DNA of 32,000 nucleotides, taken from NCBI RefSeq assembly GCF_000406145.1, contig NZ_CM001976.1, forward strand, positions 3,155,213 to 3,187,212. Direction: 5' to 3'. This document shows positions 1-29,044 of the stretch, piece by piece; within the stretch, counting starts at the first letter, position 1; the number at the start of each line of letters is the position of its first letter. The notes beneath the pieces were generated by a model, which worked only from the letters and a program-made list of their open reading frames with translations, was not told the origin of the DNA and made no database searches. Origin of the DNA: Dickeya dadantii NCPPB 898. GTDB lineage: Bacteria > Pseudomonadota > Gammaproteobacteria > Enterobacterales > Enterobacteriaceae. A program made the translations under genes and the position numbers.

Positions 1-1133
1 TCCTTCAGCCGTCCGGGGTGTTGTTTGACGATGTCCCAGGGCAGGATTTCCCAACCGGAGCCTTTGCACTGCGAAGTCAGATTAGGGGTCATGGTCTGGA
101 AATAGATACCTTTGGATGTCAGGCTCCAGGGGGCATTCGCCCACACCTCTGACGAACTGTAGTCACAGGCATCCTCGCTCTCGTCATCCGTCGCCGCGGT
201 CTGTTCCGGATAGAGCCGGGCAAACTGCGCGGCCAGCCATGTCGGCAAGGTTTCCTGCAAATAGTCATCAGGGATAGCGGAGGCATCCGGCACCGGCGAT
301 TCGTCTACCCACATCAAATCAGACAGCGTCAGCTCGCTCGCGTCAGAGACACGCAAAATGTGGGGCGATACTTTCATATAACTGTGTGCGCCGCCACACT
401 CTAGAACACTGGATATCACGTAGCTAATCATCTTCTCTGATAGCAGGCTAATCTTTACCGTATCGTCCGAGTGTTCGCACTGGACAACATCCAGCAACGA
501 GCGCCAAAAACTCTTACGTAGCGCAGCGTTCAAGGCAGCGAGCTGTTCCGCCGGATAGCCAGAGGTTAACTGAAACATCGACAGTTTAGCGTTCGGTTCC
601 TGCCACCATTCCACGTTATAACCGTTGACGACGCCTTGCTTGACCATCACCGGTTCAGCCGTTGCACGCAGCAGATAGTCATAAGGCGAGAGCTGGTAGA
701 GCGACTGCATAAAGGGCGATAATCCGGTTGTCGCTATCGGTGCCACTGGCGACAGCTCAATGGCGAGTGGCTTATCTTGCCCCTGACGCCACTTACCCTG
801 CCAGCCATTCTCGGTAGCGCGTAGCGTGATGACCGGGCTGCTCGCCGTTTTTTCCTCATCCTCAGTACCGTATTCACTGTCGCTATACGATGTGTACGAT
901 TCCCCATCCAGGGTGACGACGCCCTGCTTGCTGCGCTGACCGTTAATATAGTGAGTCACCCGCTCAGGCGTCACAAAATAGCGGCTCTTCACGCGCCCAT
1001 CCAACTTAACATCCAGCTCTATCACCACTGGCGTTGTTCCCAGCGTGCCGCCATATACCACCGGCGTTGCCTGCGCGTTTCCCGCCAGCAACCCCATCCC
1101 CAGAATCCCTGCCATAAAATGGATGCTTTTCAT
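1..1133 (-). CDS. Secreted DUF3298/RsiV-like family protein, paralogue 1 (3' end runs off the window; 377 codons visible)
   Basis: Absent from the supplied ORF track because it is open at the window edge. Manual reverse-complement translation from the ATG at 1133 gives an uninterrupted frame: MKSIHFMAGILGMGLLAGNAQA/TPVVYGGTLGTTPVVIELDVKLDG...NGYNVEWWQEPNAKLSMFQLTSGYPAEQLAALNAALRKSFW...ISYVISSVLECGGAHSY...WSLTSKGIYFQ...GWEILPWDIVKQHPGRLKD. It has a Sec-type signal peptide (AQA) and aligns along its whole length with the four downstream-array ORFs. Confidence 0.8.
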   Translation of the reverse strand, partial: MKSIHFMAGILGMGLLAGNAQATPVVYGGTLGTTPVVIELDVKLDGRVKSRYFVTPERVTHYINGQRSKQGVVTLDGESYTSYSDSEYGTEDEEKTASSPVITLRATENGWQGKWRQGQDKPLAIELSPVAPIATTGLSPFMQSLYQLSPYDYLLRATAEPVMVKQGVVNGYNVEWWQEPNAKLSMFQLTSGYPAEQLAALNAALRKSFWRSLLDVVQCEHSDDTVKISLLSEKMISYVISSVLECGGAHSYMKVSPHILRVSDASELTLSDLMWVDESPVPDASAIPDDYLQETLPTWLAAQFARLYPEQTAATDDESEDACDYSSSEVWANAPWSLTSKGIYFQTMTPNLTSQCKGSGWEILPWDIVKQHPGRLK

Positions 1134-1160
1134 GTAATGTACGATGTCTCTTTATGATCC

Positions 1161-1185
1161 GATAAAAGCAGCACCGCGGTGCTGC
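1161..1185 (-). terminator. Intrinsic terminator between paralogue 2 and paralogue 1
   Basis: The perfect palindrome GCAGCACCGCGGTGCTGC (1168..1185) is followed on the minus strand by TTTTATCGG. It sits immediately after the paralogue-2 stop codon (1192..1194). Confidence 0.6.
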
Positions 1186-1191
1186 ATAAGG

Positions 1192-2391
1192 TTAAGGCAG
1201 CACCAGCTCACCGTTGCGTACATTCTCGGCCGAATGACTTTTTATGAATGACCAGGGCAATAACGCCCATGAGTCATAGGTAATTTTACCAATATGGTCA
1301 TCGGTTGAGATATTGGAATAAAAACGCAACCCTTTAGCCGTTGCAAACCAGTTTTTACCAACCTGAACCCAGCCATCAGGTTCAGGGGCTGGATAAGTGT
1401 CAGATCGGGCTGCCAGCTCATCCCGGTGCAAGATCATCAGTTGCTCATACAACCATTTGGGTAGCGCACTATCAAAAGACGGTGACGGGTATTCATCGGC
1501 TTCCTTATTCTCCCCTATCGATAACAATTGCGACAATGCCACCGGTTTTGCGGTGCGGGTGGAGAGCGTTTGCGGTTTCAGCCAAAATTTTTGCTCGTTG
1601 CTGTCACCGGAGCCTTGTCCAGGAGCATCATCCTCGTACCGAACCATCACCTTACAGTCCCTGTGATATATCTGATTGATATAACTGACCAACGACGCGG
1701 AGAGCAGAGTTATCTGAATCTGTTGTGACAGATAGCCGCCATTATCAACACACGCCTGCTGCTTCAGCATGGTACTCCACCACTCTTGCTGTAAGGTACG
1801 GTTCAGCGCCGCCATCGTTTCCGGTGGATAGCCGCTGACAAACTGAAAAATTTTCACCCGTGTCTGTGGATTCTGCCACCAGGCCAGTCGATATTCCCCC
1901 ATATCTCTTTCGCCCAGGAACTCCACCGGGCGGGTTTGCCATAACAGGTAGTCATAGAGCGACACATCCCGCAGCCCCTGTTTCATCGCTTGTGCGTTAT
2001 CGTTGGGAATATCAGTGCCGGATATCAGCGTCAGGTTTACCGGGAGGCGTTGCCCGTTAGGTTGACGCCACTCGCCTTGCCAGCGCTGTTTTTCTTTATT
2101 GGGACGCAACACCATATGGTGTCGTTTATTCAGTTCTCCATCGCTAATCGAGCTGCCCAGCTGGCTATCCGGTACAATCATCAGCGATTCATCGTCTATT
2201 CCCTCAATCCAGGCCGTCAGAGAGCGGTCTTTATGATCCTGTACATCGAAGAAGCGCCCTGTTGTCGGCCCATCACCGAGCTTTAGCTCCAGCACGACAT
2301 TAGCATTCCCTATCGTCCCGCGATAAACATCCGCCCACGCACATTGAATTAACGCCAGTAGCCCCAGCGCCATAACCGTGATATGTCTCAT
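1192..2391 (-). CDS. Secreted DUF3298/RsiV-like family protein, paralogue 2 (most divergent copy)
   Basis: 399-aa ORF. Signal peptide MRHITVMALGLLALIQCAWA/DVYRGTIGN. Shares the family blocks YRGTIGN..LEL, RWQGEWRQ, EYRLAWWQNPQTRVKIFQFVSGYPPETMAALN, LVSY and ALLPW. An AAGGA Shine-Dalgarno lies 7 nt upstream of the ATG. Confidence 0.8.
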   Translation of the reverse strand: MRHITVMALGLLALIQCAWADVYRGTIGNANVVLELKLGDGPTTGRFFDVQDHKDRSLTAWIEGIDDESLMIVPDSQLGSSISDGELNKRHHMVLRPNKEKQRWQGEWRQPNGQRLPVNLTLISGTDIPNDNAQAMKQGLRDVSLYDYLLWQTRPVEFLGERDMGEYRLAWWQNPQTRVKIFQFVSGYPPETMAALNRTLQQEWWSTMLKQQACVDNGGYLSQQIQITLLSASLVSYINQIYHRDCKVMVRYEDDAPGQGSGDSNEQKFWLKPQTLSTRTAKPVALSQLLSIGENKEADEYPSPSFDSALPKWLYEQLMILHRDELAARSDTYPAPEPDGWVQVGKNWFATAKGLRFYSNISTDDHIGKITYDSWALLPWSFIKSHSAENVRNGELVLP

Positions 2392-2427
2392 TATCCAATC
2401 CTTGCGGTTTATATTTATAACTTATAT

Positions 2428-3288
2428 TTATGGCATTACCTGCTGCGTCAGCCGACCGGGGTTGGCCCGCACCAGACGCCACGGCAACACCGCCCACCCA
2501 CCGTCGCCGCACGTTTTAGGATAATACGCCCCTGGATAAAAACGGATGCCCTCTGGTGTCAGTGACCATAAACCCTCATCCCATTCTTCAAATTGGTATG
2601 CACAAGACTCGTCATTCATCTGGCGGGGATAAAGTGCCCTTAATTGCGTTGTGATCCAGTCGATAAGGGTGACCCCGTGGTAAGTATCAAATGACTGGTT
2701 GCGCGTGATATCTAAGGGGGGCTTACGCAGCATCAGGACATCATCGATCGACAAAGGTCTGGCATCTTGAGTTAACAATGTACTGGCATCGTGAAAGGTG
2801 TACGGTGTGTCGCCATTACAGGCGCTCACCTCTGTTTTCAGATAACTGACCACCGATGGCGTAATCAACGAAAAAGACCACTCAGCGTGATACGCCAATG
2901 GAGATTGTCCCTTTTGTGCCTTAGACAGCTGCTGATAAGATTCCTGACACGCTTTTTTACGCTCCAGCATCAAGAACATTTCAGCGTTCAGTTTGTTATT
3001 GAGCCGGATACGCTGATTGGTCGTATAGCCGGAAGCGATTTGTGGGTAGGTAAATCCTGTTAGCGGATCACTCCACCAGATGACGTCGTAACCATTGATA
3101 TTTTCCTGTTTTGCCACTGTCAGATCGGTATTCGTATAACGCTGGTAGGTATCAGGCTCTGACCAATAGAGCCATTGTTTAAACGGCGAAGCATGGGAGG
3201 AAGGAGCGGGGACATCGGCAAAAGCAGAGGTGAACACCATCCCCAAACAGGTAGCCACAATCCTTGCGGTTTTTATTGATAGCATCAT
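2428..3288 (-). CDS. Secreted DUF3298/RsiV-like family protein, paralogue 3 (short form lacking the N-terminal module)
   Basis: 286-aa ORF. The signal peptide MMLSIKTARIVATCLGMVFTSAFA/DVP is joined directly to the core: NGYDVIWWSDPLTGFTYPQIASGYTTNQRIRLNNKLN ... VVSYLKTEVSAC ... WSLTPEGIRFYP ... CGDGGWAVLPWRLVRANPGRLTQQVMP. Confidence 0.8.
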   Translation of the reverse strand: MMLSIKTARIVATCLGMVFTSAFADVPAPSSHASPFKQWLYWSEPDTYQRYTNTDLTVAKQENINGYDVIWWSDPLTGFTYPQIASGYTTNQRIRLNNKLNAEMFLMLERKKACQESYQQLSKAQKGQSPLAYHAEWSFSLITPSVVSYLKTEVSACNGDTPYTFHDASTLLTQDARPLSIDDVLMLRKPPLDITRNQSFDTYHGVTLIDWITTQLRALYPRQMNDESCAYQFEEWDEGLWSLTPEGIRFYPGAYYPKTCGDGGWAVLPWRLVRANPGRLTQQVMP

Positions 3289-3421
3289 ATTACGTAAATA
3301 AATTAAGAAAGGAGAAAAGCACCATTCACCTGTTTGTACAAACCGCCACAGGTGAACCCAAAAGACCGTACCATTATATCGGTATTACATCCGTATCGCC
3401 TTCGCTATCTTACTGATATAA

Positions 3422-4627
3422 TTAGGGAACCGTGACATATTGAAGACGGCCAGGGTGTTTATTCACAATGCGCCAAGGCACGACTTCCCACCCCTCGTCA
3501 TCGCATACATCCGTGCCATCCGGCCGTAGCGGTTGAAAATAAATCCCTTCCGGGGTGAAGGACCAACGGGTGTTGGCCCATGTCTGCGTCGCGGTGTAAT
3601 CACAGCCTTCACCGGTAGCGCCAGATGCGTGGGTCATTTTGGTCGGATACAATTGGGTAAACTGGCTTTTTAACCATTCAGGAAGACGTTCCTGTAAACG
3701 CATTTCACCATAGTCATCGCCATTATCGTACTCATCGCTCATCACTGGCACCGGAAGATCATCGAGCCAGAACAGATCAGAGAGCAACAGTTCTGGATAG
3801 TCCCTAAGAGTCGATGCGTCGTACCTGAGCGTTGACGTGTGAGTGAATACTCTGATTTGGGGTTGTTCATCATCCGGACACTGGAATTTTCCCGTCAAGG
3901 TATAGCTGACGGCGTTTGGCGACAACAAACCAATTTTGACCTTTAGCCCTCCCGCATTGACGCAGGTACTCATGCCAGACAAGGTACGCCAGAACATGTC
4001 GCGCAACATTGCATTTAATTGATTACGCTGCTCGGCCGAATAACCCGATGCCACCTGAAACATGGAGAAATGGGTAAGCGGGTCTTGCCACCACTCCACC
4101 GCGTACTTTCCCATCATTCCTTGTTTAACCATCTTTGGTTCATATCCCTGCTGGAAAAGGGCATCGTACGTTAATGTGTGATAGACCGTCTGCATAAATG
4201 GTGGGGCGCTGGCAACATCACTTTCTTCAGGAAAAAACTTAACAGGCGACAACACTACCGACACGGGTGCCGCATTGTTTTCACGCCACTCACCGTATAG
4301 TCGATTCCCCAATGAACCATGAAGAATTAATGTTTTTTCCACCCAAGGTGGAGGATCATCCGCACGATTGCCTAATTTCAGCACAATGCCTAATTCATTA
4401 ACCAAGCCAGAGAGTGGACGAGTGACATGTTCAGAAGGGACAAAATAGCGGCTGGTTCTCGCTCTCATCCGATAACTTATCGTCTACAGTTTCTATCACT
4501 ACTGGCGTTGATTACCCAGCGTTCCTTTATAGGTACCATGGTCTGTTGGGATGCTGGCCATACCCTTCATACAAACCAAGCCCAGCGCCAGCACCAACAT
4601 CCTTGAGGTCAATGTTAATAAGTTCAT
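3422..4627 (-). pseudogene. DUF3298/RsiV-like paralogue 4, with the signal peptide detached by two compensating frameshifts
   Basis: ORF 3422..4468 carries the full family core but no signal peptide. An ATG at 4627 opens MNLLTLTSRMLVLALGLVCMKGMASIPTDHGTYKGTLGNQRQ, then TAG TGA TAG. The family sequence continues in another frame (STPVVIETVDDKLSDES) before returning to the original frame at SRYFVPSEHV. The ATGs at 4627 and 4468 are in the same frame (159 nt apart), with four in-frame stops between them. Confidence 0.65.
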
Positions 4628-4783
4628 ATTAAGTAAATAGATAAGAAAGAAAGCGGATACTATAGCGGAAATGAACTAAGCGCCGTAATCAAAAACAAAA
4701 CGGCGTCTCGTTTTATACGCGAGGGGAACGAACCTTGACTCCCCGGCCGGATATATCGCAAGCCGGGGTATACAGCGTAACAC

Positions 4784-5970
4784 TCAGGGCAACGGCAAAT
4801 CCTTCAGCCGTCCGGGGTGTTGTTTCACCACGCTCCACGGCACTACCGCCCAGGCTGCATCATCACAAACACTGTCGGATTCAGGAAAGGTCGGGTGGAA
4901 AAGGATGCCTTTGGCGGTCAGCGTCCAGGTCGAATACTGCCAGCGGTCTGGTTCACGATAATCACACTGCGTATCACCCCAGGCACCTTTTATGGTCTTC
5001 GCCATCTCAGCCGGATACATCGACGAAAGCTGTTCAACCAGCCAGGCTGGAAAAATATCGCCCCTGTCATCTTTAGATTCCGCCACCTCATCCGGTACGG
5101 GTGATTCATGAACCCAAAGTAGATCGGATAACGCCATACTCTTCGCATCACTCACCCGCAGATTGGCGCTGCGCATACCGGAGGATGCCCCATCCCGCCA
5201 CAGAACATACTTCCGGAGATGGTGTAACTGACCGCCCGGGGAAACAACTGGCTAATCTGCATCTCTTCGGTGTATTTCCCTTGTTCTGGATTCGTTCCCA
5301 CTATACAGCGGTAATGATTCAACACCTCCTGCCACAGCTCCTTACGCAGCGCCGTATTCAATCCCGCCAGCTGTTCTGCCGAATAACCGCTGCGTAACTG
5401 AAACGTCGTCATGCCGGACAGCGGATCTCGCCACCATTCCACGCTGTATCCATTCACGTTTTCCTGCTTCGTCATCACCGGTTCGGCCCCTTCATGCCGC
5501 AGGTATTCATAGCGTGAATGTTGATACGCCTGCTGCATAAACGGCGATGCTGTCGCAGGCAGTTCGGTGACCAGCGACAGCACCACCGGGTAGGCTTTGC
5601 CTTTGTCGTTGCGCCACTCGCCCTGCCAGGTTTTTTGATCGCGGCTGCGCAGCACTATCACCGGTATCGAATCTTTGCCAGCCAGCGCTTGTTGGTCATC
5701 CATAGCATCATCGCCTTCCGATAGCACCAGATTGCCCTGCGCATCCCGCGAGCCGGATAATGGAATATCCTTGCGGTATTTAGTATAGAAATAACGTCCG
5801 CTAATACTCCGGCTTCCCGGCTGATTGGGGTCGTTATTCAGTTCCACCCCGATGGCTGTATTACCTATCGTGCCGCGATAAACGGGAAAATCATCGTCAG
5901 CCTTAGCAACCCCTGCCAGAAAAACGACGCCCAGCGCGACTATCCTTGAGGCTAATGTGAATAAGTTCAT
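4784..5970 (-). pseudogene. DUF3298/RsiV-like paralogue 5, split by a single frameshift
   Basis: ORF 5152..5970 covers the signal peptide MNLFTLASRIVALGVVFLAGVAKA, the N-terminal module and the core up to SYTISGSMFCGGMGHPP. ORF 4784..5176 covers RSANLRVSDAKSMALSDLLWVHESPVPD...VVPWSVVKQHPGRLKDLPLP. Together they are colinear with one intact paralogue (compare paralogue 1, CGGAHSYMKVSPHILRVSDASELTLSDLMWVDESPVPD). The two frames differ by 2 nt, with the switch near 5170..5185. Confidence 0.75.
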
Positions 5971-6213
5971 GTTAACTATATGAATAAGAAAGGGAGTGGA
6001 GACTATAATTGAACTACTGCATTTCCACTAATCATAACGAATAACCGCCTCAGTAAATAAGCGCACATTGAATACTCCGATGATGCTCACCCATCACTCA
6101 ATGGCATTTTCTCCTCCACGCTCTATGCTATGACGAGTCAGGGACAAACGGAGACGCGGTGTGCGCCGACGTTATCCTGGTGATTTTCTTTTCATACCAA
6201 AAAGGACAACACC

Positions 6214-6804: not shown

Positions 6805-7635
6805 TCACGCCGCCACCGTTCCCACCTTCATCATCGCCTCGCCGGCGACCGTCAGCGCCGAATGACGACAGAAACGCACCACTTCCCCCACGACCAACAG
6901 ACTGGGTGACTGCGGCTGATAACGCGCCATCAGCGCCGGCAAGGTCGCCAGCGTGGCGGTCAGCAAACGCTGTTCCGGCTGGGTACCGCGCTCGATAATC
7001 GCCAGCGGCGTACCGGCGGGCAAACCATTGGCGATCAGTTTCTGGCACAGACGGCTGGCATGACTCAGCCCCATGTAAAACACCAGCGTCTGTTGGCCGA
7101 CGCCGAGCGTTTCCCAGTCCAGCTGCGGTTCGCCGTCGCGGGCATGTCCGGTGATAAAGCGCACCGACTGGGCGCAATCCCGGTGCGTCAGCGGTAGCCC
7201 CACCGCCGCGGCGCAGCCGGTGGCGGCAGTGATGCCAGGCACCACATGGCAGGTCACGCCCTGCTGCTGCAGATAATCCATCTCTTCGCCGCCACGGCCA
7301 AAAATGAACGGATCGCCGCCTTTAAGCCGCACCACCCGTTGCCCGGCTTGCGCCAGTTCCATCAGCAACTGGTTGATTTGCGGCTGCGGCAGCGCGTGGT
7401 GCCCCTGCTGCTTGCCGACATCAATACACAACGTCTCCGGCTGAACCAACGCCATGATATCGGCGGAAACCAGCCGGTCATGGACCACCACGTCCGCCTG
7501 CTGAATCGCCCGCAGCGCCTTGATAGTCAGCAGTTCGGCGTCGCCCGGGCCGGCGCCCACCAGCCAGACATCGCCGACCAGCACAGGCTGGCGTTGATGG
7601 CCCTGCGCCATCAGTGTGTTCAGAATAGGGTTCAT
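6805..7635 (-). CDS. cobA: Uroporphyrinogen-III C-methyltransferase (siroheme branch; CysG C-terminal-domain type)
   Basis: 276-aa ORF with [50 protein letters not shown] and [13 protein letters not shown] motifs. An AAGGAG Shine-Dalgarno precedes the start. It is the last gene of the nas transcription direction. Confidence 0.85.
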
Positions 7636-7662: not shown

Positions 7663-10311
7663 TCAGCCCGCCCGGCGTAATGTATCCGGCGTGGCATACT
7701 GTTGCAGCAACGCCTTCAGTTCCGGCACGCAGGACCCGCAATTGGTCCCGCATTGTAGTTGTTCGCCCAGTTTCGCCACGCTGTGGCACCCCTGACGGAT
7801 CGCATCGATAATGCGCTGTTCTCCCACCGCGAAGCAGCTGCAAATGGTCGCCCCCTGCGGCGCTTCGCCCTGCGGCGCGCATCCGGCCAGCAGCGCCAGC
7901 CGATCCGACGTCTGCTGCGGCGGCGAGGCAAACGCCGCCAGGATCGTTTCACGCTCCAGCACAGGCCGGCGAACGTCGACATACAGCGCCACCGCCACCT
8001 GCCCCGACAGCCAGCCAACCGCGTGAAACAGGCCGCCGTCGCCCTGCGCCTGTTGATAGTCGACGCCGTCCAGTCCGTACTGCCGGGCCAACCAGTCGAG
8101 CCAGCGATCCGGCGTCTGTTCGCCGGCGATGGTGTAATGAGACACACCGTCGGCGGCAATGCGGCTCCAGTAGCCGCAATCCGGCGCCGTCACATCGCCG
8201 CGCACAAACAGTTCGCCGAACCAGGCGGCGGGCCAGCGTTGGATACGCACCCGCGCCTGCTTGCTTTCCGGCTGACCGGAATAGGGGTCGGTCACCGCCG
8301 CCACCAGGCTGTCTGCCCGCGCCTGCGCGCTGAACTGCCGGTTCCAGTGCATTGGGACAAAGATACTGCCGCGCTGCTGCCCGCGCTGGACCTGCGCCCG
8401 CGCCAGCATCCAGCCCGACTCGGCGCTGATGCGCACCAGTTCGCCGTCGTGAACGCCGGCATTGAGCGCATCCTGCGGATGGAGGTCGCAATAGGGCTCC
8501 GGCAGATGGCGCATCAGGCGAGGCGCCTTGCCGGTACGGGTCATGGTATGCCACTGATCGCGCACCCGGCCGGTGTTGAGCACCAGCGGATACGCGGGCG
8601 ACGGCGGATTGACAGGCAGTTGCGGCGTGATCGCCAGCAGCCGCGCCTTACCATCCGGATGCCAGCAGCGACCGTCGGTATACAACCGCCTGGTGCCGTC
8701 GCCAGCGTTGGCGGTCACCGGCCACTGCACCGGTGTGAGTTGCTGCCATTGTTCATCGCTAAGCGTCGCCAGCGCGCTGATGTTGAACGCACGCTGTTCC
8801 TGATTCTCGAAACCGGACAAGGCGGCGTGTTCGCGGAAGATTTGCGCCGGGTGGCGATAATCAAACGCCTCGCCAAACCCCATACGCGTGGCGACCTGCG
8901 ACACAATCCACCAGTCTGCTTTCGCCTCGCCCGGCGCAGGCAAGAACGCGCGTTGGCGGGAAATACGCCGTTCGGAATTGGTGACCGTGCCGTCTTTTTC
9001 TCCCCACGCCAATGCCGGTAACAGGATATGGGCGCATTCGGTGGTATCGGTATGGCGCATCACATCAGAGACAATCACCAGCGGGCAGCGCAACAACGCC
9101 TGCCGCACCCGATCGGCCTCCGGCATTGACACCACCGGGTTGGTCCCCATGATCCACACCGCCTTCACCTGCCCGGCTTCGATGGCGCGGAACAAGTCCA
9201 CCGCCATCAGCCCCGGTGCCGAAGCCACCCGGTCGCTGCCCCAGAAGCGGCCAACCCGCGCCACCTCTGGCGGGCTGAACCCCATGTGCGCCGCCAGTTG
9301 GTTCGCCAACCCGCCCACTTCCCGGCCCCCCATAGCATTCGGCTGACCGGTAATCGAAAACGGGCCGCACCCTGCACGACCGATACGGCCGCTGAACAGA
9401 TGCACGTTGATAATCGCGTTGCATTTGTCGCTACCGGAAGCAGACTGGTTAATCCCCTGCGAGTAGAGCGTGACTACCTTGCCGGTCTCACTGAACCACT
9501 GGTAAAAACGAGTGATGTCCTCGTGTCGTAACCGGCAGAATTCCGCCACCTGTTCTACCGTCCACTCATCGGCCGCCGCCAGCGCCGCTTCCACACCGCT
9601 AAGCGCGTCAGGTGGCGGCGCGGATTGCTGCGCCAGCCAGTGCAGCAATCCGTTAAACAACCCGGCATCGCTGCCGGGTGCCAACGGCAGATGTAAATCT
9701 GCCGCATCGCAAGTAGCGGTATGACGCGGGTCCACCACCACGACCTTCATGTGCGGACGCTGTTGTTTGGCCTGCATCAACCGCTGATACACCACCGGGT
9801 GCGCCCAGGCGGTATTGGAGCCGACCAGCACCACCAGATCCGCCTGTTCGATGTCTTCATAGTTACCCGGCACCGCATCAGCACCCAACGCCCGTTTGTA
9901 GCCGATGACCGCTGAGGCCATGCACAGCCGGGAATTGGTATCCATGTTGGCGCTGCCAATGAATCCTTTCATCAGCTTGTTGGCGACGTAATAGTCTTCG
10001 GTCAGTAATTGCCCCGAGCCGTAAAACGCCACCGCCTGCGGGCCGTGCTGCGCAATAATATCGCCGAGCGATTGCGCGACCCGGTCCAGCGCCTGATCCC
10101 AACTGACGCGCTGCCCGTCTACCAGCGGCCATAACAACCGCCCTTGTAGACTCAGCGTGTCGCCGAGCGCTGAACCTTTGACGCACAACCGTCCCTGATT
10201 CGCCGGGTGCTGGCTGTCGCCTTTTATGGTCACCCTCCCGTCCGGTTGCGCCGTGGCAATCACGCCGCAACCCACGCCGCAATAAGGACAAGTGGTGCGA
10301 CAGTCGGTCAT
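7663..10311 (-). CDS. nasA: Assimilatory nitrate reductase catalytic subunit (molybdopterin enzyme with a C-terminal BFD-like 2Fe-2S domain)
   Basis: 882-aa ORF. It has an N-terminal CPYCGVGCGV 4Fe-4S motif, a molybdopterin oxidoreductase body, and a C-terminal CSCFAVGEQRIIDAIRQGC...CGTNCGSCVPELK. The start overlaps the upstream stop (ATGA at 10308..10311). Confidence 0.9.
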   Translation of the reverse strand: MTDCRTTCPYCGVGCGVIATAQPDGRVTIKGDSQHPANQGRLCVKGSALGDTLSLQGRLLWPLVDGQRVSWDQALDRVAQSLGDIIAQHGPQAVAFYGSGQLLTEDYYVANKLMKGFIGSANMDTNSRLCMASAVIGYKRALGADAVPGNYEDIEQADLVVLVGSNTAWAHPVVYQRLMQAKQQRPHMKVVVVDPRHTATCDAADLHLPLAPGSDAGLFNGLLHWLAQQSAPPPDALSGVEAALAAADEWTVEQVAEFCRLRHEDITRFYQWFSETGKVVTLYSQGINQSASGSDKCNAIINVHLFSGRIGRAGCGPFSITGQPNAMGGREVGGLANQLAAHMGFSPPEVARVGRFWGSDRVASAPGLMAVDLFRAIEAGQVKAVWIMGTNPVVSMPEADRVRQALLRCPLVIVSDVMRHTDTTECAHILLPALAWGEKDGTVTNSERRISRQRAFLPAPGEAKADWWIVSQVATRMGFGEAFDYRHPAQIFREHAALSGFENQEQRAFNISALATLSDEQWQQLTPVQWPVTANAGDGTRRLYTDGRCWHPDGKARLLAITPQLPVNPPSPAYPLVLNTGRVRDQWHTMTRTGKAPRLMRHLPEPYCDLHPQDALNAGVHDGELVRISAESGWMLARAQVQRGQQRGSIFVPMHWNRQFSAQARADSLVAAVTDPYSGQPESKQARVRIQRWPAAWFGELFVRGDVTAPDCGYWSRIAADGVSHYTIAGEQTPDRWLDWLARQYGLDGVDYQQAQGDGGLFHAVGWLSGQVAVALYVDVRRPVLERETILAAFASPPQQTSDRLALLAGCAPQGEAPQGATICSCFAVGEQRIIDAIRQGCHSVAKLGEQLQCGTNCGSCVPELKALLQQYATPDTLRRAG

Positions 10312-13300
10312 AACGCCTCCGCCATGTCGGTCGATATCACCTTACTCGGTTCATCAGCCACCCAGATACGATCCTGAACAACACGTACCGGCCAGACGCG
10401 TACCCGCAACTGACTGTCATCCGGGCTGACACCATCACACAAGCGCAAACGTTTTTTGTACAACGGCGAAATCACCACCGGCTCACCGGCCACGTCGCCG
10501 ACAATGCCACGCGACAGCACGTTAGCACCGCTTCCCGGCTCCAGGTTATCGAGCGCGAACACGCGTGCCGCCTGGCCCGGTTGCGACGCCGGGAGATGGA
10601 ACAACGCCACCTGGCGATGTCCGACTCGGGCTGCCATCCCCGCATTCGCCGGGATATCGCTGAGGAAACCGACGCACTGCCAGCCATCGGCCCCGAGGGT
10701 CTCGGATACGGTGATCGGTTTTTTCTCTTCCTGACGCGCCGGGCGAATCTGACCACGTTCGGGGACCATCACCACCGCCTCATCCGGGGTATCGCTGTTG
10801 AGGAAGGCGCGGAACAATGCCCGATTTTCGTCATGCGCCAGTGTGGTTTGCCACTCGCACTGGTAGCTGTCGACAACATGGCGCATCTCGCTTTCCAGCT
10901 CATCGGCAATCCCCAGGCTGTCGTCGATCACCACCTGACGCAGGTAATCAACGCCGCCTTCCAGATTATCCAGCCACACACTGGTACGCTGGAGCCGGTC
11001 TGCGGTACGGATGTAAAACATCAGCAGGCGGTCGATAAACCGGAATAGCATCTCGGTATCCAGATCGCTGGCGAACAGGTCAGCATGACGCGGTTTCATA
11101 CCACCATTACCGCACACGTACAGGTTCCAGCCTTTGTCGGTGGCAATCACACCGATGTCTTTACCCTGCGCTTCGGCGCATTCGCGGGTACAACCGGAAA
11201 CCGCCATCTTGAGCTTATGCGGTGAGCGCAACCCTTTGTAACGGTGCTCCAGCGCAATCGCCAGCCCAGTGGAATCCTGCACGCCATAGCGGCACCAGGT
11301 TGACCCTACGCAGGATTTCACCGTACGCAGCGACTTGCCGTAGGCATGACCGGTTTCAAAACCGGCGTCGATCAGTTCCTGCCAGATAGCCGGCAGTTGT
11401 TCCAGCCGCGCACCGAACAGGTCGACGCGCTGACCGCCGGTAATTTTGGTGTACAGGTGGTAGCGTTCAGCCACCTGGCCGATGGCGATCAGCCCCTGCG
11501 GGGTGATCTCGCCGCCGGGAATACGCGGCACCACCGAGTAAGTGCCATCTTTCTGGATATTGGCCAGGAAACGGTCGTTGGTATCCTGCAACGGTACGTG
11601 TTCGGGCTTCAGTACATAGTCGTTCCAGCAGGACGCCAGCATCGACCCGGCCAGCGGTTTACAGATTTCACAACCCAGCCCATGACCGTGGCGGGCGATC
11701 AGTTCGTCAAAACTGCGGATGCGGTTGACGCGGATCAGGTGGTACAGCTCCTGGCGCGAATAGGCGAAATGCTCGCAGATGTCTTTTTTTACCTCGATGC
11801 CCGACTGCTGCAACTGGTACTCCATCACCTGCTTGAGCAGCGGTACGCAGCCGCCGCAGCCGGTGCCCGCTTTAGTACAAGCTTTGAGCGACGCCAAATC
11901 AGTGCAGCCGTTGTCCACCGCCGCACAGATATCCGCTTTGCTGACGTTGTGGCAGGAGCAGATCTGCGCGCTGTCCGGCAACGCCGCCACCCCCAGCCCT
12001 TTCGGCGCCGCGCCGTCCAGCGCGGGCAGAATCAGGCTTTCCGGGTGCGCAGGCAAGGTCATGTCGTTGAGCTTCATCTGCAACAGCGTGCTGTAATCGC
12101 TGCTGTCGCCCACCAGCACCGCCCCCAGCAGCCGTTTGCCGTCCGCCGACACAATGATTTTTTTATAGACCTGATTCGGTTCGTCGTTCCACTGATAGCT
12201 CAGGCTGCCCTCGGTTTTACCGTGGGCATCGCCGATCGAGGCCACGTCCACACCCAGCAGCTTGAGCTTGGTGCTCATGTCGGCCCCGATGAACGTTTGC
12301 TCCTGCTGCGCCAGCCGGGCGGCGACGGTGCGCGCCATCTGGTAGCCCGGTGCCACCAGCCCAAATATCTGCCCTTGCCATACCGCACACTCGCCGATGG
12401 CGAAGATAGCGTCATCCGAGGTCTGGCAATGATCGTCAATCACGATACCGCCGCGCACGCCTATCTCCAGCCCGGCCTCACTCGCCAACCGAACGCGTGG
12501 GCGAATACCGGCGGAAAACAGTATCAGATCGGTTTCCAGCGACGTGCCATCGGCGAAGTTCATGCGGTGACGCGCCTGCTCGCCTGCCGTAATGGCGATC
12601 GTTTCTTTGCTGGTGTGCACATGCAGGTTCAACGCTTCGATTTTGCGCCGGAGCAACTGTGCGCCGCCATCATCCAGTTGCACCGCCATCAACCGGGGTG
12701 CGAACTCTACCACATGAGTCTCCAGCCCCAGTTGGCGCAGCGCATTGGCCGCCTCCAGCCCCAGCAGACCGCCGCCCACCACCACGCCGCTGCGCGATTC
12801 GCGCGCTTGGTCGGCAATCGCATCCAGATTATCCAACGTGCGATATACCAGACAGCCGGGGCGATCATTGCCTTTGATCGGTGGTACAAACGCATAGGAG
12901 CCGGTTGCAAGCACCAGGCGATCGTAAGGTGTTTCCTGACCATTCGCGTCGCGCACACAGCGGCGCTGGCGATCGATTGTCATCACCTGACAACCGGTAC
13001 GCAGCTCAATACCGGTCTGCTCGAAAAAACCTTCACTAACCATCGACAGCGATTCGGCGCTGCGACCGGCAAAATACTCGGACAAATGTACCCGGTCATA
13101 GGCCGGATGGCGCTCCTCACCAAACACCACCACGTGATACTGTTGGTGCAGGTTGCGTTCCACCAGTTGCTCCAGAAAGTGGTGCCCGACCATGCCGTGC
13201 CCCACTACCACCAATACGGGTTTACTCATGACAGAAATCCTTACGGCCGAAGGCCGTATGTCTACTTCAGGAAAAGAAAGACCAAACAAAAGCGACGACG

Positions 13301-14483
13301 GTGCCGATGACAGCCTGGTCTCCATGGCCGCCAGCAGTTGCGGACTGTCGCTGACATGACCGAACAACAGCGCGCCGCATAACCGGTCGTCGCGGAATAT
13401 CAGGCGGCGATAATGGCCGCCGAGCGGGTCTGACAGCGAGTGGAGCCGATCGCCCTCCTGCGGGTGCAACTCCCCCGCGCTCACCACGTCAATCCCGGTA
13501 ACTTTTAGTCGGGTGGCCAGCGCCGCCGGCGCGTAATCCGCCACCGGCTGCTCCGCCAGCCGGGCGGCCAGCACGTCGGCCTGCGCCAGACAGGGGGCCA
13601 CCAGCCCGACCGTTTCACCCTTCACTTCAGCGCACTCGCCGACTGCGCTGACGTATTCATCGGCGGTGCGCAACTGGCCGTCCGCCAGAATGCCGCGCCC
13701 GCACGCCAGGCCGCTGTCGCGAGCCAGCTCACACACCGGTTGTACGCCGGTCGCCACCACCACCAGACCGGCGGGCAGGCGCGTGCCGTCAGCCAGTTCG
13801 ACCGCCTCCACCTGCTTGCCGCCGGACAATTCATTACCGGACAATTCGTTACCGGATAATGCCTGAATCTGCACGCCGGTCAGGCAACGGATACCGCGCT
13901 CATGCAGCCGGGTGCACAGCAGGCCGCTGGCGGTGGCGTCAAGCTGACGCTCCATCAGCCGGGCGTGGCGGTGCAGTAGCGTCACCGTGGCGCCTTGCAG
14001 GCGCAGCGCGGCGGCGGCTTCAATGCCCAGTAATCCGCCGCCGATCACCACCACCGGCTTTCCCTGCCGCACCGCCGCCCACATCCGCTCAACGTCATCC
14101 AGCGTACGAAAGCCCATCACGCCCGGCAGGTCGATGCCCGGCAGCGGCGGCATAAACGGGCGGGAACCGGTGGCGAACACCAGTTGGTCATACGCCAGAC
14201 GACGGCGATCGGTGATCACTTCCCGCGCGGATCTGTCGATACGCAATACCGACTCGCCGGTCAGGGTGGTCACGTCCATGGTTTCCGGCGCCGGTTCTAG
14301 CTGCGTGTCCTTAAAGCTTTTCTCTCCCCCCAGCACCGACGAAAGCAGCACGCGGTTATAGCTGTCGCGCGGCTCGCGATCGATGACGGTGACGCGGTAG
14401 CGTTGCGGTGCCAGTTGCCCCAGTCTCTTTACCAGCCGGACGCTGGACAGACCGTTGCCGATAATCACCAGATGCGCGCTCAT
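10308..14483 (-). CDS. nasB: Single 1391-codon ORF: NasC-like FAD/NAD(P) oxidoreductase module joined in frame to a NirB-NirD-type assimilatory nitrite reductase (NasB)
   Basis: Residues 1-418 form a pyridine-nucleotide-disulfide oxidoreductase fold (VIIGNGLSS..., VVVIGGGLLGIEAA). From the internal ATG at 13229, MSKPVLVVVGHGMVGHHFLEQL...AYDRVHLSEYF is colinear with E. coli NirB, including the BFD-like CSCHNVSKADICAAV...GCGGCVPLL and the siroheme/4Fe-4S region. The last ~110 residues are NirD-like (WQCVGFLSDIPANAGMAARV...ISPLYKKRLRLCDG). A GGGAGGAAG Shine-Dalgarno precedes the start at 14483. Confidence 0.85.
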   Translation of the reverse strand: MSAHLVIIGNGLSSVRLVKRLGQLAPQRYRVTVIDREPRDSYNRVLLSSVLGGEKSFKDTQLEPAPETMDVTTLTGESVLRIDRSAREVITDRRRLAYDQLVFATGSRPFMPPLPGIDLPGVMGFRTLDDVERMWAAVRQGKPVVVIGGGLLGIEAAAALRLQGATVTLLHRHARLMERQLDATASGLLCTRLHERGIRCLTGVQIQALSGNELSGNELSGGKQVEAVELADGTRLPAGLVVVATGVQPVCELARDSGLACGRGILADGQLRTADEYVSAVGECAEVKGETVGLVAPCLAQADVLAARLAEQPVADYAPAALATRLKVTGIDVVSAGELHPQEGDRLHSLSDPLGGHYRRLIFRDDRLCGALLFGHVSDSPQLLAAMETRLSSAPSSLLFGLSFPEVDIRPSAVRISVMSKPVLVVVGHGMVGHHFLEQLVERNLHQQYHVVVFGEERHPAYDRVHLSEYFAGRSAESLSMVSEGFFEQTGIELRTGCQVMTIDRQRRCVRDANGQETPYDRLVLATGSYAFVPPIKGNDRPGCLVYRTLDNLDAIADQARESRSGVVVGGGLLGLEAANALRQLGLETHVVEFAPRLMAVQLDDGGAQLLRRKIEALNLHVHTSKETIAITAGEQARHRMNFADGTSLETDLILFSAGIRPRVRLASEAGLEIGVRGGIVIDDHCQTSDDAIFAIGECAVWQGQIFGLVAPGYQMARTVAARLAQQEQTFIGADMSTKLKLLGVDVASIGDAHGKTEGSLSYQWNDEPNQVYKKIIVSADGKRLLGAVLVGDSSDYSTLLQMKLNDMTLPAHPESLILPALDGAAPKGLGVAALPDSAQICSCHNVSKADICAAVDNGCTDLASLKACTKAGTGCGGCVPLLKQVMEYQLQQSGIEVKKDICEHFAYSRQELYHLIRVNRIRSFDELIARHGHGLGCEICKPLAGSMLASCWNDYVLKPEHVPLQDTNDRFLANIQKDGTYSVVPRIPGGEITPQGLIAIGQVAERYHLYTKITGGQRVDLFGARLEQLPAIWQELIDAGFETGHAYGKSLRTVKSCVGSTWCRYGVQDSTGLAIALEHRYKGLRSPHKLKMAVSGCTRECAEAQGKDIGVIATDKGWNLYVCGNGGMKPRHADLFASDLDTEMLFRFIDRLLMFYIRTADRLQRTSVWLDNLEGGVDYLRQVVIDDSLGIADELESEMRHVVDSYQCEWQTTLAHDENRALFRAFLNSDTPDEAVVMVPERGQIRPARQEEKKPITVSETLGADGWQCVGFLSDIPANAGMAARVGHRQVALFHLPASQPGQAARVFALDNLEPGSGANVLSRGIVGDVAGEPVVISPLYKKRLRLCDGVSPDDSQLRVRVWPVRVVQDRIWVADEPSKVISTDMAEAL
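13822..13866 (-). repeat. 15-bp in-frame tandem duplication inside the NasC-like module
   Basis: CCGGACAATTCATTA / CCGGACAATTCGTTA / CCGGATAATGCCTGA (the third unit is degenerate). It encodes LSGNELSGNELSGG. Confidence 0.85.
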
Positions 14484-17568: not shown

Positions 17569-17602
17569 CAACGACACCTCGGCAACCCGCCATTCCGGCG
17601 GT

Positions 17603-17655
17603 AAAAACAAAAAGGCGCCCATAAGCCATGCGAAAATCGCACGCTTATGGGCGCC
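17603..17655 (-). terminator. Intrinsic terminator (attenuator) in the nasF leader
   Basis: The minus-strand RNA reads GGCGCCCAUAAGC-(16-nt loop that itself pairs UGCGA/UCGCA)-GCUUAUGGGCGCC, followed by UUUUUGUUUUU. It sits ~35 nt upstream of the nasF start codon. Confidence 0.8.
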
Positions 17656-19327: not shown

Positions 19328-19426
19328 TCTCTCTTCTCTCCACACGGCATGTGATGCGACCATGCCGTCATACGATTACGCTGTCATACAGCCACGCCGT
19401 CATACACCCATGCAACGGTATAGACA

Positions 19427-24422: not shown

Positions 24423-24424
24423 GA

Positions 24425-28600: not shown

Positions 28601-29044
28601 AATAAATGAGTCCTTAAATGATTTAGAGAAAATATTTTACAATCACCTGTCAGGCGATAATTCCTGGTGGTCATATTTCACTATTTTCCGAATAACAACC
28701 GGATTGCGCGTTGAATAACGCAATACATCAACTTTTTACGGCAAGGCAAATAACACGTTCTTTTATCACTGCGGAATAACAGCGAAAATAAAAAGACGTA
28801 AAATAAACCGAGTCATAACGCCGGCATGGCGGCAAGTTAAATATGACGACATGTTCAGATAATACCTTTTGAACAACGCCACTATACTTGCCATTCAGAA
28901 TATAAAAAAATCAGGCCTGTTCGTTGGCAGGGGGAAGAACGCCAAATATCGAAAAGAAAACGCTTTATTCTAAAAAAGAAACATAAAAAAGAGATAACGG
29001 AAAAAACAACGTTATATCTCTTTATTTATTGTCTTATTCTTATA

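What the first reader, a model, noticed from the sequence alone, without database searches (positions are those of the whole stretch)
1..5970. Tandem array of five diverged, Sec-secreted DUF3298/RsiV-like paralogues: a possible periplasmic inhibitor or immunity-type family
Five consecutive minus-strand genes (1..1133, 1192..2391, 2428..3288, 3422..4627, 4784..5970) encode clear paralogues.

Shared architecture:
- Each has its own AxA-type signal peptide.
- Most have an N-terminal module (Y-x-G-T-I/L-G-N...L-E-L...G-R-Y/F-F ... W-Q-G-E/K-W-R).
- All share a core with NGY-x-V-x-WW-x-x-P...F-Q-x-x-SGY-x-x-E/N-Q...LN, V-S-Y, C-G-G-A/M-H/G, L-S-D-L-x-W, W-S/T-L/F-T-x-x-G-I-x-F and G-W-x-V/I-L/V-P-W.

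The ...SY....GGAH... block followed by the F-x-L-x-x-x-G-L-x-F ... G...V-x-I-P-W strand is what I recall as the hallmark of the DUF3298 domain. That domain occurs in the lysozyme-binding anti-sigma factor RsiV and in PdaC.

The copies are strongly diverged in sequence. Two are decayed, and one has lost a whole module. The block is visibly less GC-rich than the adjacent nas cluster.

Diversified tandem arrays of periplasmic proteins of this kind are typical of immunity or inhibitor loci under arms-race selection, for example orphan immunity arrays against T6SS cell-wall or lipase effectors. No toxin or effector gene is visible. The 5' side of the array is a divergent FMN reductase gene, and the 3' side leaves the window. 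The function is therefore open, and the immunity/inhibitor idea is inference only.
Basis: partly seen in the sequence, partly recalled or inferred. Interest (0 to 1): 0.75.

Follow-up and report, generated by a model that had tools for sequence, protein, structure and literature searches.

The report
Tandem exported RsiV-like protein genes
A plant-pathogen (Dickeya) genome carries a row of old, diverged gene copies for exported proteins whose core folds like the lysozyme-binding domain of the Bacillus sensor RsiV; the fold call holds, but what the proteins bind is unknown and the "immunity array" idea is untested.

Summary
Five minus-strand paralogues (21-50% identical) lie at the stated coordinates. 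Two are pseudogenes and one lacks the N-terminal module.

The fold call is also supported, although Pfam and NCBIfam models miss the window proteins:
- An AlphaFold model of g1 (pLDDT 86) matches only the known RsiV/DUF3298 structures: 3CYG, 5JEN, 3S5T and 4E72.
- A family profile hits 3CYG at E 9e-6.
- 24 of 116 wider relatives hit PdaC/DUF4163.

The N-terminal module is an extra 8-stranded, calycin-like barrel.

The family is widespread in beta- and gamma-proteobacteria (2,327 cluster representatives). All are hypothetical proteins, and some are already labelled "DUF3298 domain-containing" or "RsiV family protein".

In Dickeya the array is ancient and syntenic, with 1:1 orthologues in three species. 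It evolves 2-5x faster than its flanks but under purifying selection (dN/dS 0.11-0.25, no region above 0.35 outside the signal peptide). Strains differ by copy loss, a gene fusion, decayed copies and mosaic alleles.

No toxin, T6SS or sigma-factor gene lies nearby in the nine other loci examined, whose flanks also cover the side that leaves the window.

My best guess is a set of periplasmic binders or inhibitors of lysozyme-like hydrolases. It rests only on analogy with RsiV (about 0.3).

The parts
1..1133 (-). g1: paralogue with a signal peptide, an N-terminal 8-stranded barrel and an RsiV-like core. The last 5 codons and the stop lie left of the window (full protein 382 aa, WP_038911518).
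   Evidence: Translation. Identical to P0284 over 377 aa. AlphaFold model pLDDT 86, pTM 0.82. Foldseek hits to 3CYG, 5JEN, 3S5T and 4E72.
1192..2391 (-). g2: intact 399-aa paralogue and the most divergent lineage. The GGAH motif is replaced by a longer insert, and only 2 of the 4 family cysteines are kept.
   Evidence: ORF, alignment, BLASTP to g1 E 2e-38, Cys count. Orthologues are 76% identical in D. zeae and 49% in D. aquatica.
2428..3288 (-). g3: intact 286-aa paralogue with a signal peptide joined directly to the RsiV-like core. It has no N-terminal barrel.
   Evidence: ORF, alignment. The short form is conserved in orthologues of 270, 284 and 291 aa.
3422..4627 (-). g4: pseudogene. Insertions of 2 nt (about 4510) and 1 nt (about 4461) put roughly 50 nt out of frame, giving four stops. 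A 348-aa ORF without a signal peptide remains (3422..4468).
   Evidence: The intact orthologue in another D. dadantii strain is 389 aa. The fragment is identical to WP_161624727.
4784..5970 (-). g5: pseudogene. A 1-nt deletion in a G run (5191-5188) splits it into ORFs of 272 aa and 130 aa.
   Evidence: The intact orthologue is 395 aa. The fragments are identical to WP_236616672 and WP_050570269.
4588..4664 (-). Conserved 5' region of g4: the start codon, the first codons of the signal peptide and about 40 nt upstream. It is 79% identical to the matching region of g5 and overlaps the ~129-nt stretch (4588-4716) that aligns on both sides of the copy missing from this strain.
   Evidence: Repeat family D5. 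BLASTN of the window against L001 shows the deletion of L001 6444-7679, with window 4588-4716 aligning on both sides.
5931..6007 (-). Conserved 5' region of g5, the partner of the repeat at 4588-4664.
   Evidence: Repeat family D5.

Best explanation
**What it is (shown, confidence about 0.9).** This is part of an ancient tandem array in Dickeya dadantii. The strain probably has six genes, five of them in the window. They encode Sec-exported, acidic proteins (mature pI 4.5-5.4) with four conserved cysteines. The proteins have three parts:
1. a cleavable signal peptide;
2. an 8-stranded up-and-down beta-barrel of the calycin (avidin/lipocalin) type;
3. a two-lobed DUF4163+DUF3298 domain, the fold of the extracellular lysozyme-binding domain of the anti-sigma factor RsiV.

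They are not anti-sigma factors. There is no cytoplasmic or transmembrane part and no sigma gene nearby.

**How it most likely works (inferred, about 0.3).** The proteins sit in the periplasm as soluble stoichiometric binders or inhibitors of lysozyme-like peptidoglycan hydrolases. Candidate targets are:
- lysozymes of hosts, grazers or insects that get past the outer membrane;
- muramidases delivered by competitors;
- the cell's own lytic transglycosylases.

Binding would use the loops around and after the GGAH motif to occlude the enzyme cleft, as RsiV does with hen lysozyme. Each paralogue lineage has been kept separately since before the split of the three Dickeya species compared, and the lineages differ most in those loops. 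Each would therefore cover a different target.

In this strain two copies are dead and one is deleted, so the repertoire is partly dispensable.
For: **Architecture**
- Paralogy and domain layout.
- Full-length model pLDDT 86. The only significant PDB fold matches are 3CYG, 5JEN (RsiV-lysozyme), 3S5T and 4E72. The RsiV structure paper lists these three as RsiV's structural relatives, together with MPT64 (PMC5014341).
- Sequence-profile links: 3CYG E 9e-6, 3S5T E 1.3e-3; PdaC/DUF4163 in 24 of 116 relatives, best E 1.4e-6.
- N-module model pLDDT 87, matching only avidin, lipocalin and nitrobindin barrels.

**Export**
- Signal peptides are visible in the sequences.
- Four nearly invariant cysteines across 116 relatives.
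- Mature pI 4.5-5.4.

**Precedent for the proposed mechanism**
- RsiV binds the lysozyme active-site cleft and inhibits the enzyme at 1:1 (PMC5014341).

**Evolution**
- Copies are retained and individually conserved: 1:1 orthologues in the same order in D. dadantii, D. zeae and D. aquatica, with dN/dS 0.11-0.25.
- Paralogues differ most around the GGAH loop.
- Stand-alone genes without a conserved partner in other taxa. From my own knowledge, not tested here, the known periplasmic lysozyme inhibitors Ivy and PliC/MliC are also stand-alone genes.
- Tandem expansion recurs in Pseudomonas, with 3 copies.
Against: - No binding data exist for any member.
- The fold does not imply lysozyme binding. 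MPT64 has the same fold and does not bind lysozyme (PMC5014341).
- Three of the five window copies (g2, g3, g4) lack the GGAH motif.
- No sign of positive selection in a pooled sliding-window test: maximum 0.35 outside the signal peptide.
- The calycin barrel suggests a small-molecule pocket that the inhibitor model does not need.
- Two copies are pseudogenes here, so selection on them is weak in this strain.
Confidence: 0.3

Rival explanations
1. The proteins are ligand-binding or scavenging proteins, or secreted host-interaction factors, unrelated to enzyme inhibition. The calycin barrel and/or the RsiV-like cleft would bind a small molecule, lipid or glycan. MPT64, with the same core fold, is a secreted protein reported to bind eukaryotic membranes. 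The paralogues would cover different ligands.
For: - The N module matches only ligand-binding barrels: rhizavidin and agroavidin at TM 0.5-0.6, plus siderocalin and nitrobindin.
- MPT64 carries DUF3298, does not bind lysozyme, and is described as a eukaryotic membrane-binding effector.
- Purifying selection with many invariant aromatic residues fits a conserved pocket.
- The neighbours are metabolic and transport genes: nas, an FMN reductase, a solute-binding protein and an aminotransferase.
Against: - Foldseek E-values for the barrel are weak (0.02-0.1), and a barrel topology alone does not show a pocket.
- g3 and its orthologues work without the barrel.
- No transporter or enzyme is consistently adjacent across taxa.
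- No ligand can be named.
Confidence: 0.25
2. The genes form an orphan immunity array. Each copy would neutralise a different periplasm-acting antibacterial effector (T6SS amidase, muramidase or lipase) delivered by competitors, with the effector genes lost or located elsewhere.
For: - Tandem diverged periplasmic paralogues.
- Strain-level copy loss, pseudogenes, a fusion and replacement of the distal copy.
- Mosaic g1 alleles within one species.
- Protein evolution faster than in the flanks.
- GC below that of the neighbours.
Against: - No effector, VgrG, Hcp, PAAR or Rhs gene within 10 kb in three Dickeya species, nor in the rest of the window.
- Single-copy relatives in other genera sit in unrelated housekeeping contexts.
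- The same slot and the same gene order with 1:1 orthologues in all three species compared, and dN/dS of 0.11-0.25, point to long-term vertical retention and not to turnover.
- At about 360 mature residues with two domains, these are larger than typical T6SS immunity proteins (my own knowledge).
Confidence: 0.12
3. The genes are RsiV-type signalling receptors or anti-sigma factors that sense lysozyme and release an ECF sigma factor.
For: - Core fold shared with RsiV.
- NCBI names some orthologues 'RsiV family protein'.
Against: - The proteins begin directly with a cleavable signal peptide. There is no cytoplasmic sigma-binding domain or membrane anchor.
- No ECF sigma gene lies in the window or in any fetched locus.
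Confidence: 0.01
4. The array is a decaying, functionless remnant of an old duplication.
For: Two pseudogenes and one deleted copy in this strain. Many truncated forms of the g5 lineage occur in D. dadantii and D. solani.
Against: Every lineage has intact orthologues in D. zeae, and all but the g5 lineage in D. aquatica, with dN/dS of 0.11-0.25, well below 1. The family is conserved across beta- and gamma-proteobacteria.
Confidence: 0.05

Closest known systems
Extracellular domain of the anti-sigma-V factor RsiV (Bacillus subtilis, PDB 5JEN), DUF4163 + DUF3298
   Same: The two-lobed core fold (Foldseek E 9e-5, prob 1.00), and location outside the cytoplasm. RsiV shows that this fold can bind and block a peptidoglycan hydrolase at 1:1 (PMC5014341).
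   Different: - No sigma-binding domain, membrane anchor or adjacent sigV.
- Soluble, with a cleavable signal peptide.
- An extra N-terminal calycin-like barrel.
- Two likely disulfides.
- About 10% sequence identity.
- Lysozyme binding untested.
Uncharacterised DUF3298/DUF4163 structures: 3CYG (Fervidobacterium nodosum), 3S5T (BF2082, Bacteroides fragilis) and 4E72 (PA4972, Pseudomonas aeruginosa)
   Same: These are the best fold matches, and they share the x-GGAH-x ... L-x-L-x-D-(L/F/I) motif. They too have no known function.
   Different: They are about 200-265 residues long. The only significant sequence match between the Dickeya-type family profile and these chains is the ~60-residue GGAH block. 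The Dickeya-type family falls below Pfam thresholds and forms its own clade of about 370-420-residue proteins.
MPT64 (Rv1980c, Mycobacterium tuberculosis)
   Same: A secreted protein with the DUF3298-type fold.
   Different: It does not bind lysozyme and is reported to bind eukaryotic membranes. It is not among the Foldseek hits here and is not arranged in arrays.
Periplasmic lysozyme inhibitors of Gram-negative bacteria (Ivy, MliC/PliC, PliI, PliG)
   Same: The proposed mode of action and compartment. They are stand-alone genes and acidic soluble or lipid-anchored periplasmic proteins. MliC/PliC is also an 8-stranded barrel (my own knowledge).
   Different: No sequence or HMM relationship. 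The N-module's top 50 fold matches do not include MliC or PliC. Inhibition is untested.
Orphan T6SS immunity gene arrays
   Same: Tandem, diverged, exported paralogues with strain-to-strain copy differences.
   Different: No effector linkage anywhere. Conserved order and 1:1 orthology across the genus, with purifying selection.

Membership tests
DUF4163 (PdaC, PF13739) + DUF3298 (PF11738) superfamily (RsiV-like extracytoplasmic domain) | Match to the Pfam models at or above the gathering score | tested here: not met
   No hit at E<=1 for any window protein. Among 27 close relatives, PdaC is hit in 4, best E 0.0043. Among 116 wider relatives, PdaC is hit in 24, best E 1.4e-6, and DUF3298 in 1, at E 0.046. 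The one score printed (P0031, 13.4 bits) is below the 29.1-bit cut-off; the bit score of the best hit (E 1.4e-6) was not shown.
DUF4163 (PdaC, PF13739) + DUF3298 (PF11738) superfamily (RsiV-like extracytoplasmic domain) | Three-dimensional fold of solved members | tested here: met
   The g1 model (pLDDT 86) gives 3CYG 3e-6, 5JEN 9e-5, 3S5T 6e-4 and 4E72 6e-3, with TM-score normalised to the target of 0.29-0.53. Nothing else reaches E<=1e-3.
DUF4163 (PdaC, PF13739) + DUF3298 (PF11738) superfamily (RsiV-like extracytoplasmic domain) | Sequence motif: aromatic-x-GGAH followed by ...L-x-L-x-D-(L/F/I), and the C-terminal ...G-(L/I)-x-(F/I) ... (I/L)-P-(W/Y) strand | tested here: met
   The family consensus is CGGAHP...L-x-L-x-D-L-L-W. 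It is aligned by HMMER to the same motif in 3CYG (E 9e-6) and 3S5T (E 1.3e-3). Within the window it is present in g1 (CGGAH) and degenerate in g5 (CGGMGH). It is absent from g2, g3 and g4.
RsiV anti-sigma factors | N-terminal cytoplasmic sigma-V-binding domain and a transmembrane segment | tested here: not met
   All copies start with a signal-peptide-like stretch of 20-26 residues followed directly by the barrel or the core.
RsiV anti-sigma factors | Gene adjacent to an ECF sigma factor gene (sigV) | tested here: not met
   The neighbours are an FMN reductase, cobA and nas genes on one side. On the other side they are a solute-binding protein, an aminotransferase, a LysR regulator and an S66 peptidase.
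RsiV anti-sigma factors | Binding of C-type lysozyme through the contact residues defined in 5JEN | not testable with these tools
   No residue-level structural alignment was available, and 5JEN is not reached by sequence. This needs biochemistry or a complex prediction.
Known periplasmic lysozyme inhibitors (Ivy, MliC/PliC, PliI, PliG) | Sequence or HMM membership in one of these families | tested here: not met
   No such Pfam family appears among the hits for the window proteins or for 143 relatives.
Known periplasmic lysozyme inhibitors (Ivy, MliC/PliC, PliI, PliG) | Inhibition of lysozyme activity | not testable with these tools
   This is a biochemical assay.
T6SS / polymorphic-toxin immunity arrays | Linkage to a cognate effector or to secretion-system genes (VgrG, Hcp, PAAR, Rhs) | tested here: not met
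   None within 10 kb on either side in D. dadantii, D. zeae or D. aquatica. None in the 32-kb window. None at six loci in other taxa.
T6SS / polymorphic-toxin immunity arrays | Rapid turnover or diversifying selection | tested here: inconclusive
   Turnover exists within the species: a deleted copy, pseudogenes, a fusion and mosaic alleles. Against this, orthologues are 1:1 in a fixed order across the genus. dN/dS is 0.11-0.25 gene-wide and at most 0.35 per 20-codon window outside the signal peptide. dS is near saturation, and no site-model test was run.
Calycin-type beta-barrels (avidin / lipocalin / nitrobindin), for the N-terminal module only | 8-stranded up-and-down antiparallel barrel | tested here: met
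   Eight strands appear in both models. Nearly all of the top 50 Foldseek hits are avidins, lipocalins, nitrophorins, nitrobindin or fatty-acid-binding proteins, with TM-scores up to 0.61. E-values are only 0.02-0.14, so this is a similarity of topology, not proven homology.

The most novel reading that the evidence does not exclude
This is a previously unrecognised family of periplasmic proteinaceous inhibitors of peptidoglycan hydrolases in beta- and gamma-proteobacteria. It would stand alongside Ivy, MliC/PliC, PliI and PliG. It is built from an RsiV-like domain plus a calycin barrel. In Dickeya it has expanded into a 6-7-member repertoire, with each paralogue neutralising a different class of lysozyme or injected muramidase.
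Probability: 0.2. Interest if true: 0.7.

Novelty: new variant of a known kind. Interest (0 to 1): 0.4.

Why it matters
If the RsiV-like core does bind hydrolases, the lysozyme-recognition fold known from Gram-positive signalling would also act as a soluble periplasmic defence in Gram-negative bacteria. Dickeya would then offer a natural panel of six or seven diverged specificities to dissect.

The hypothesis is directly testable with purified proteins and an array deletion.

If it is wrong, the result is still useful. A family with 2,327 cluster representatives, missed by Pfam and NCBIfam, now has a domain architecture and a defined evolutionary behaviour.

As it stands the finding is an uncharacterised family with a correct fold label that public databases already partly carry.

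Tried and rejected
**Searches that found nothing**
- Direct Pfam and NCBIfam scans of the six window ORFs found nothing relevant.
- The profile of 27 close relatives against PDB sequences gave only noise. The broader 116-sequence profile was needed.
It then ran twice, with a single protein and with a 7-sequence alignment, and found no relative. No systematic species survey was therefore possible. Cross-species comparison rests on loci fetched by exact protein look-up.
- Exact look-ups of this strain's own proteins (g2, g1, the sixth copy) were not on record. The DNA left of the window in the same strain could not be read. Synteny in L001-L004, L008 and L009 stands in for it.
- tblastn of g2 against plasmids found no match.
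- Literature searches for DUF3298, DUF4163, 'RsiV family' and the strain 3937 locus tags found no functional study of this family.

**Attempts that did not work**
- I tried to map RsiV's lysozyme-contact residues by reaching 5JEN from a 3CYG fragment. It hit only 3S5T and 4E72.
- The promoter and terminator scan gave fewer promoter-like sites than shuffled sequence and is uninformative.

**Readings rejected**
- RsiV-type anti-sigma signalling, because of architecture and context.
- Recent horizontal island, because the array is syntenic across the genus.
- g3 as a decayed copy, because the short form is conserved.

Full report
**1. What is in the sequence**

The window comes from Dickeya dadantii. 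Every ORF of the array is identical to a D. dadantii RefSeq protein, and the DNA is 98% identical to two D. dadantii assemblies.

Five consecutive minus-strand genes sit at the stated coordinates.
- g1 (<1..1133) lacks only its last five codons. The full protein is 382 aa.
- g2 (1192..2391, 399 aa) and g3 (2428..3288, 286 aa) are intact.
- g4 (3422..4627) carries a 2-nt and a 1-nt insertion about 50 nt apart. These put four stop codons in frame.
- g5 (4784..5970) has lost one G from a G5 run at 5191-5188.

Both lesions are seen in catalogued proteins, and the g5 fragments occur on two contigs. They are therefore likely real.

The copies are 21-50% identical. The most distant pair still gives BLASTP E 1e-11.

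A sixth copy (383 aa) is recorded on a contig of the same length (4,997,541 bp) as g1, g2 and the g5 fragments, presumably the same assembly, so it probably lies just left of the window.

**2. What the proteins are**

Pfam and NCBIfam do not recognise any window copy, even at E<=1.

An AlphaFold model of g1, built on 27 relatives, is confident (pLDDT 86, pTM 0.82). Against the PDB its only significant matches are:
- 3CYG (3e-6);
- the RsiV-lysozyme complex 5JEN (9e-5);
- the DUF3298 protein 3S5T (6e-4);
- PA4972, 4E72 (6e-3), just below the 1e-3 line.

Everything else is noise. The RsiV structure paper names 3CYG, 3S5T and 4E72, together with MPT64, as RsiV's structural relatives (PMC5014341).

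Sequence evidence follows once the family is sampled broadly:
- A profile of 116 diverse relatives hits 3CYG at 9e-6 and 3S5T at 1.3e-3, through the GGAH...L-x-L-x-D-L block and the C-terminal G-L...I-P-W strand.
- The Pfam PdaC/DUF4163 model is hit in 24 of those 116 relatives.

One detail differs: in the one Pfam alignment shown (P0031), the SY...GGAH region aligns to the end of the PdaC/DUF4163 model.

The N-terminal module was modelled alone (pLDDT 87). It is an eight-stranded up-and-down barrel. Its fold neighbours are avidins, lipocalins and nitrobindin (TM up to 0.6, E 0.02-0.1). This is a calycin-type topology, not a proven homologue. MliC and PliC are not among the top 50.

The mature proteins are acidic (pI 4.5-5.4). 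They carry four nearly invariant cysteines, except g2, which keeps two. This fits an oxidising extracytoplasmic compartment.

**3. How big the family is**

A word-indexed search found only 26 relatives, almost all from Dickeya.

An exhaustive profile search found 2,327 cluster representatives at E<=1e-3, and 279 at E<=1e-30. Nearly all full-length hits listed are 360-420 residues with the same architecture.

Named members come from these groups:
- Pseudomonas;
- Budviciaceae (Limnobaculum, Pragia, Leminorella);
- Rouxiella;
- Aquitalea, Vogesella, Gulbenkiania and Chitinimonas;
- Lysobacter and Rhodanobacter;
- Aeromonas.

All are "hypothetical protein". UniRef calls some "DUF3298 domain-containing protein", and NCBI calls some Dickeya orthologues "RsiV family protein". 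No paper in the searchable library addresses their function.

**4. Context**

In D. dadantii, D. zeae and D. aquatica the array occupies the same slot. It lies between the divergent FMN-reductase gene and a solute-binding-protein gene. Beyond that come an aminotransferase, a LysR regulator, an S66 LD-carboxypeptidase, a chemoreceptor and a gamma-glutamyltranspeptidase.

There is no T6SS, Rhs, effector, peptidoglycan-hydrolase or ECF sigma gene. The rest of the window holds nas genes, an RND efflux system, regulators, transporters and fdhE.

Elsewhere the gene is usually single and its neighbours are unrelated:
- a DAP-epimerase-family gene in P. abieticivorans;
- the dcw cluster in a metagenome contig;
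- a GNAT acetyltransferase in Chitinimonas;
- hypF and an autotransporter in Limnobaculum;
- an arginase and cob genes in a Neisseriaceae bacterium.

A Pseudomonas contig has three tandem paralogues. Tandem expansion therefore recurs in the family.

**5. Evolution of the array**

D. dadantii strain L001 has six genes of 395, 390, 389, 270, 399 and 750 aa. The last is an in-frame fusion of two copies.

D. zeae has the same layout. D. aquatica has seven separate genes.

Orthologues pair 1:1 in the same order. Identity is 66-86% between D. dadantii and D. zeae, and 40-60% to D. aquatica. Paralogues are only 21-50% identical. The duplications therefore predate the split of the three species compared. 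The barrel-less g3 form is also ancestral.

By Nei-Gojobori estimates, dN/dS is 0.11-0.25 for array genes and 0.03-0.11 for six flanking genes, with dS near saturation at about 1.

Pooling seven orthologue pairs in 20-codon windows, the highest value outside the signal peptide is 0.35. It falls in the disordered acidic loop of the barrel.

The proteins thus evolve fast but under purifying selection.

Within D. dadantii there is real flux:
- This strain has lost one whole copy. Window 4588-4716 aligns on both sides of the ~1.2-kb segment that L001 has and this strain lacks, and a 77-nt 5' repeat shared by g4 and g5 lies within it.
- Two copies are dead in this strain.
- The last two copies are fused in some strains and separate in others.
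- The distal copy of this strain and of strain 3937 (P0217-type) has a clearly different sequence from the copy at that position in L001.
- g1 alleles are mosaics. Against strain 3937 the last 110 residues are identical and the first 130 are 43-83% identical. Against L001 the pattern is reversed.

**6. Mechanism**

What is shown is the architecture, the signs of export and the pattern of retention. What the proteins bind is inferred.

The only member of the fold with a known molecular activity towards a protein is RsiV. It inserts loops into the lysozyme cleft and inhibits the enzyme at 1:1.

These features make a repertoire of periplasmic hydrolase binders or inhibitors the most economical reading:
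- soluble, acidic, exported, stand-alone proteins;
- several anciently separated lineages;
- lineages that differ most around the GGAH loop.

I put it at about 0.3.

MPT64 shows that the fold need not bind lysozyme. The calycin barrel hints at a small ligand, so a ligand-binding or host-interaction role is nearly as likely (0.25).

An orphan immunity array (0.12) fits the strain-level flux. It does not fit the absence of any effector linkage, nor the genus-wide 1:1 synteny.

An anti-sigma role is excluded by architecture and context.

**7. Verdict**

The immunity/inhibitor interpretation is neither supported by context nor excluded. The arms-race signature was not found with the crude tests available.

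The family is a distinct, uncharacterised proteobacterial branch of the RsiV/DUF3298 superfamily with an added barrel. Databases already partly label it. I rate it a new variant of a known kind, of moderate interest.

Noticed in passing
window 2396-2419: Just upstream of the g2 start codon, and out of frame with it, lies a 24-nt stretch. It is 92% identical to the codons for the start of the g3 signal peptide (3258-3281) and 71% identical to those of g4 and g5. It looks like a relic of an ancestral 5' end, which would mean the N-terminus of g2 was remodelled.
   Followed up: partly
window 1168-1185 (minus strand): A terminator-like hairpin (7 pairs, 5 of them GC, followed by TTTTAT) sits in the 58-nt gap between the g2 stop and the g1 start. 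It could be a terminator or attenuator inside what otherwise looks like a g3-g2-g1 operon with gaps of 36 and 58 nt.
   Followed up: no
L008 3849-4651 (D. zeae): D. zeae has two extra small minus-strand genes between the FMN-reductase gene and the array. One is a 165-aa DUF3885 protein and the other is a 61-aa ORF. Both are absent from D. dadantii and D. aquatica at this position.
   Followed up: no
L012 5719-11481 (Pseudomonas sp., Logan contig): Three tandem paralogues of the family (411, 396 and 393 aa) are followed by a convergent 330-aa protein with no Pfam match. After that comes an exported Sel1-repeat protein of 292 aa.
   Followed up: partly
window 27620-28600: This is the lowest-GC kilobase of the window (0.454 at 28001-29000). 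It overlaps a minus-strand alpha/beta-hydrolase gene (BD-FAE / Abhydrolase_3, E 3e-43) that lies between an MFS transporter gene and fdhE. It may be a horizontally acquired esterase.
   Followed up: no
window 6805-27500: The rest of the window reads as ordinary metabolism and efflux:
- cobA-like TP_methylase (6805-7635);
- nasA-type molybdopterin nitrate reductase (7663-10311);
- a 1,391-aa nitrite-reductase-like ORF (10308-14483);
- a nitrate ABC transporter, including an NMT1-type binding protein (16291-17622);
- a NIT-ANTAR regulator (18041-19363);
- an RND efflux trio of outer-membrane factor, AcrB-type pump and membrane-fusion protein (19858-25573);
- divergent TetR and MFS genes.

D. aquatica lacks the nasA-type gene at the matching place (L009).
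   Followed up: partly
L001 11259-13511; P0001, P0027: In-frame fusions of two family copies occur in several D. dadantii, D. zeae and D. chrysanthemi strains, as proteins of 625-750 aa. The stop codon of the first copy and the signal peptide of the second are lost. In strain 3937, and probably in this window's strain, the same two positions are separate genes.
   Followed up: partly
Genome-contig collection: Two scans of the species-representative genome collection found no relative. The peptide patterns used are present in published Dickeya proteins. The relevant genomes seem to be absent or masked there, so the negative result says nothing about distribution.
   Followed up: no
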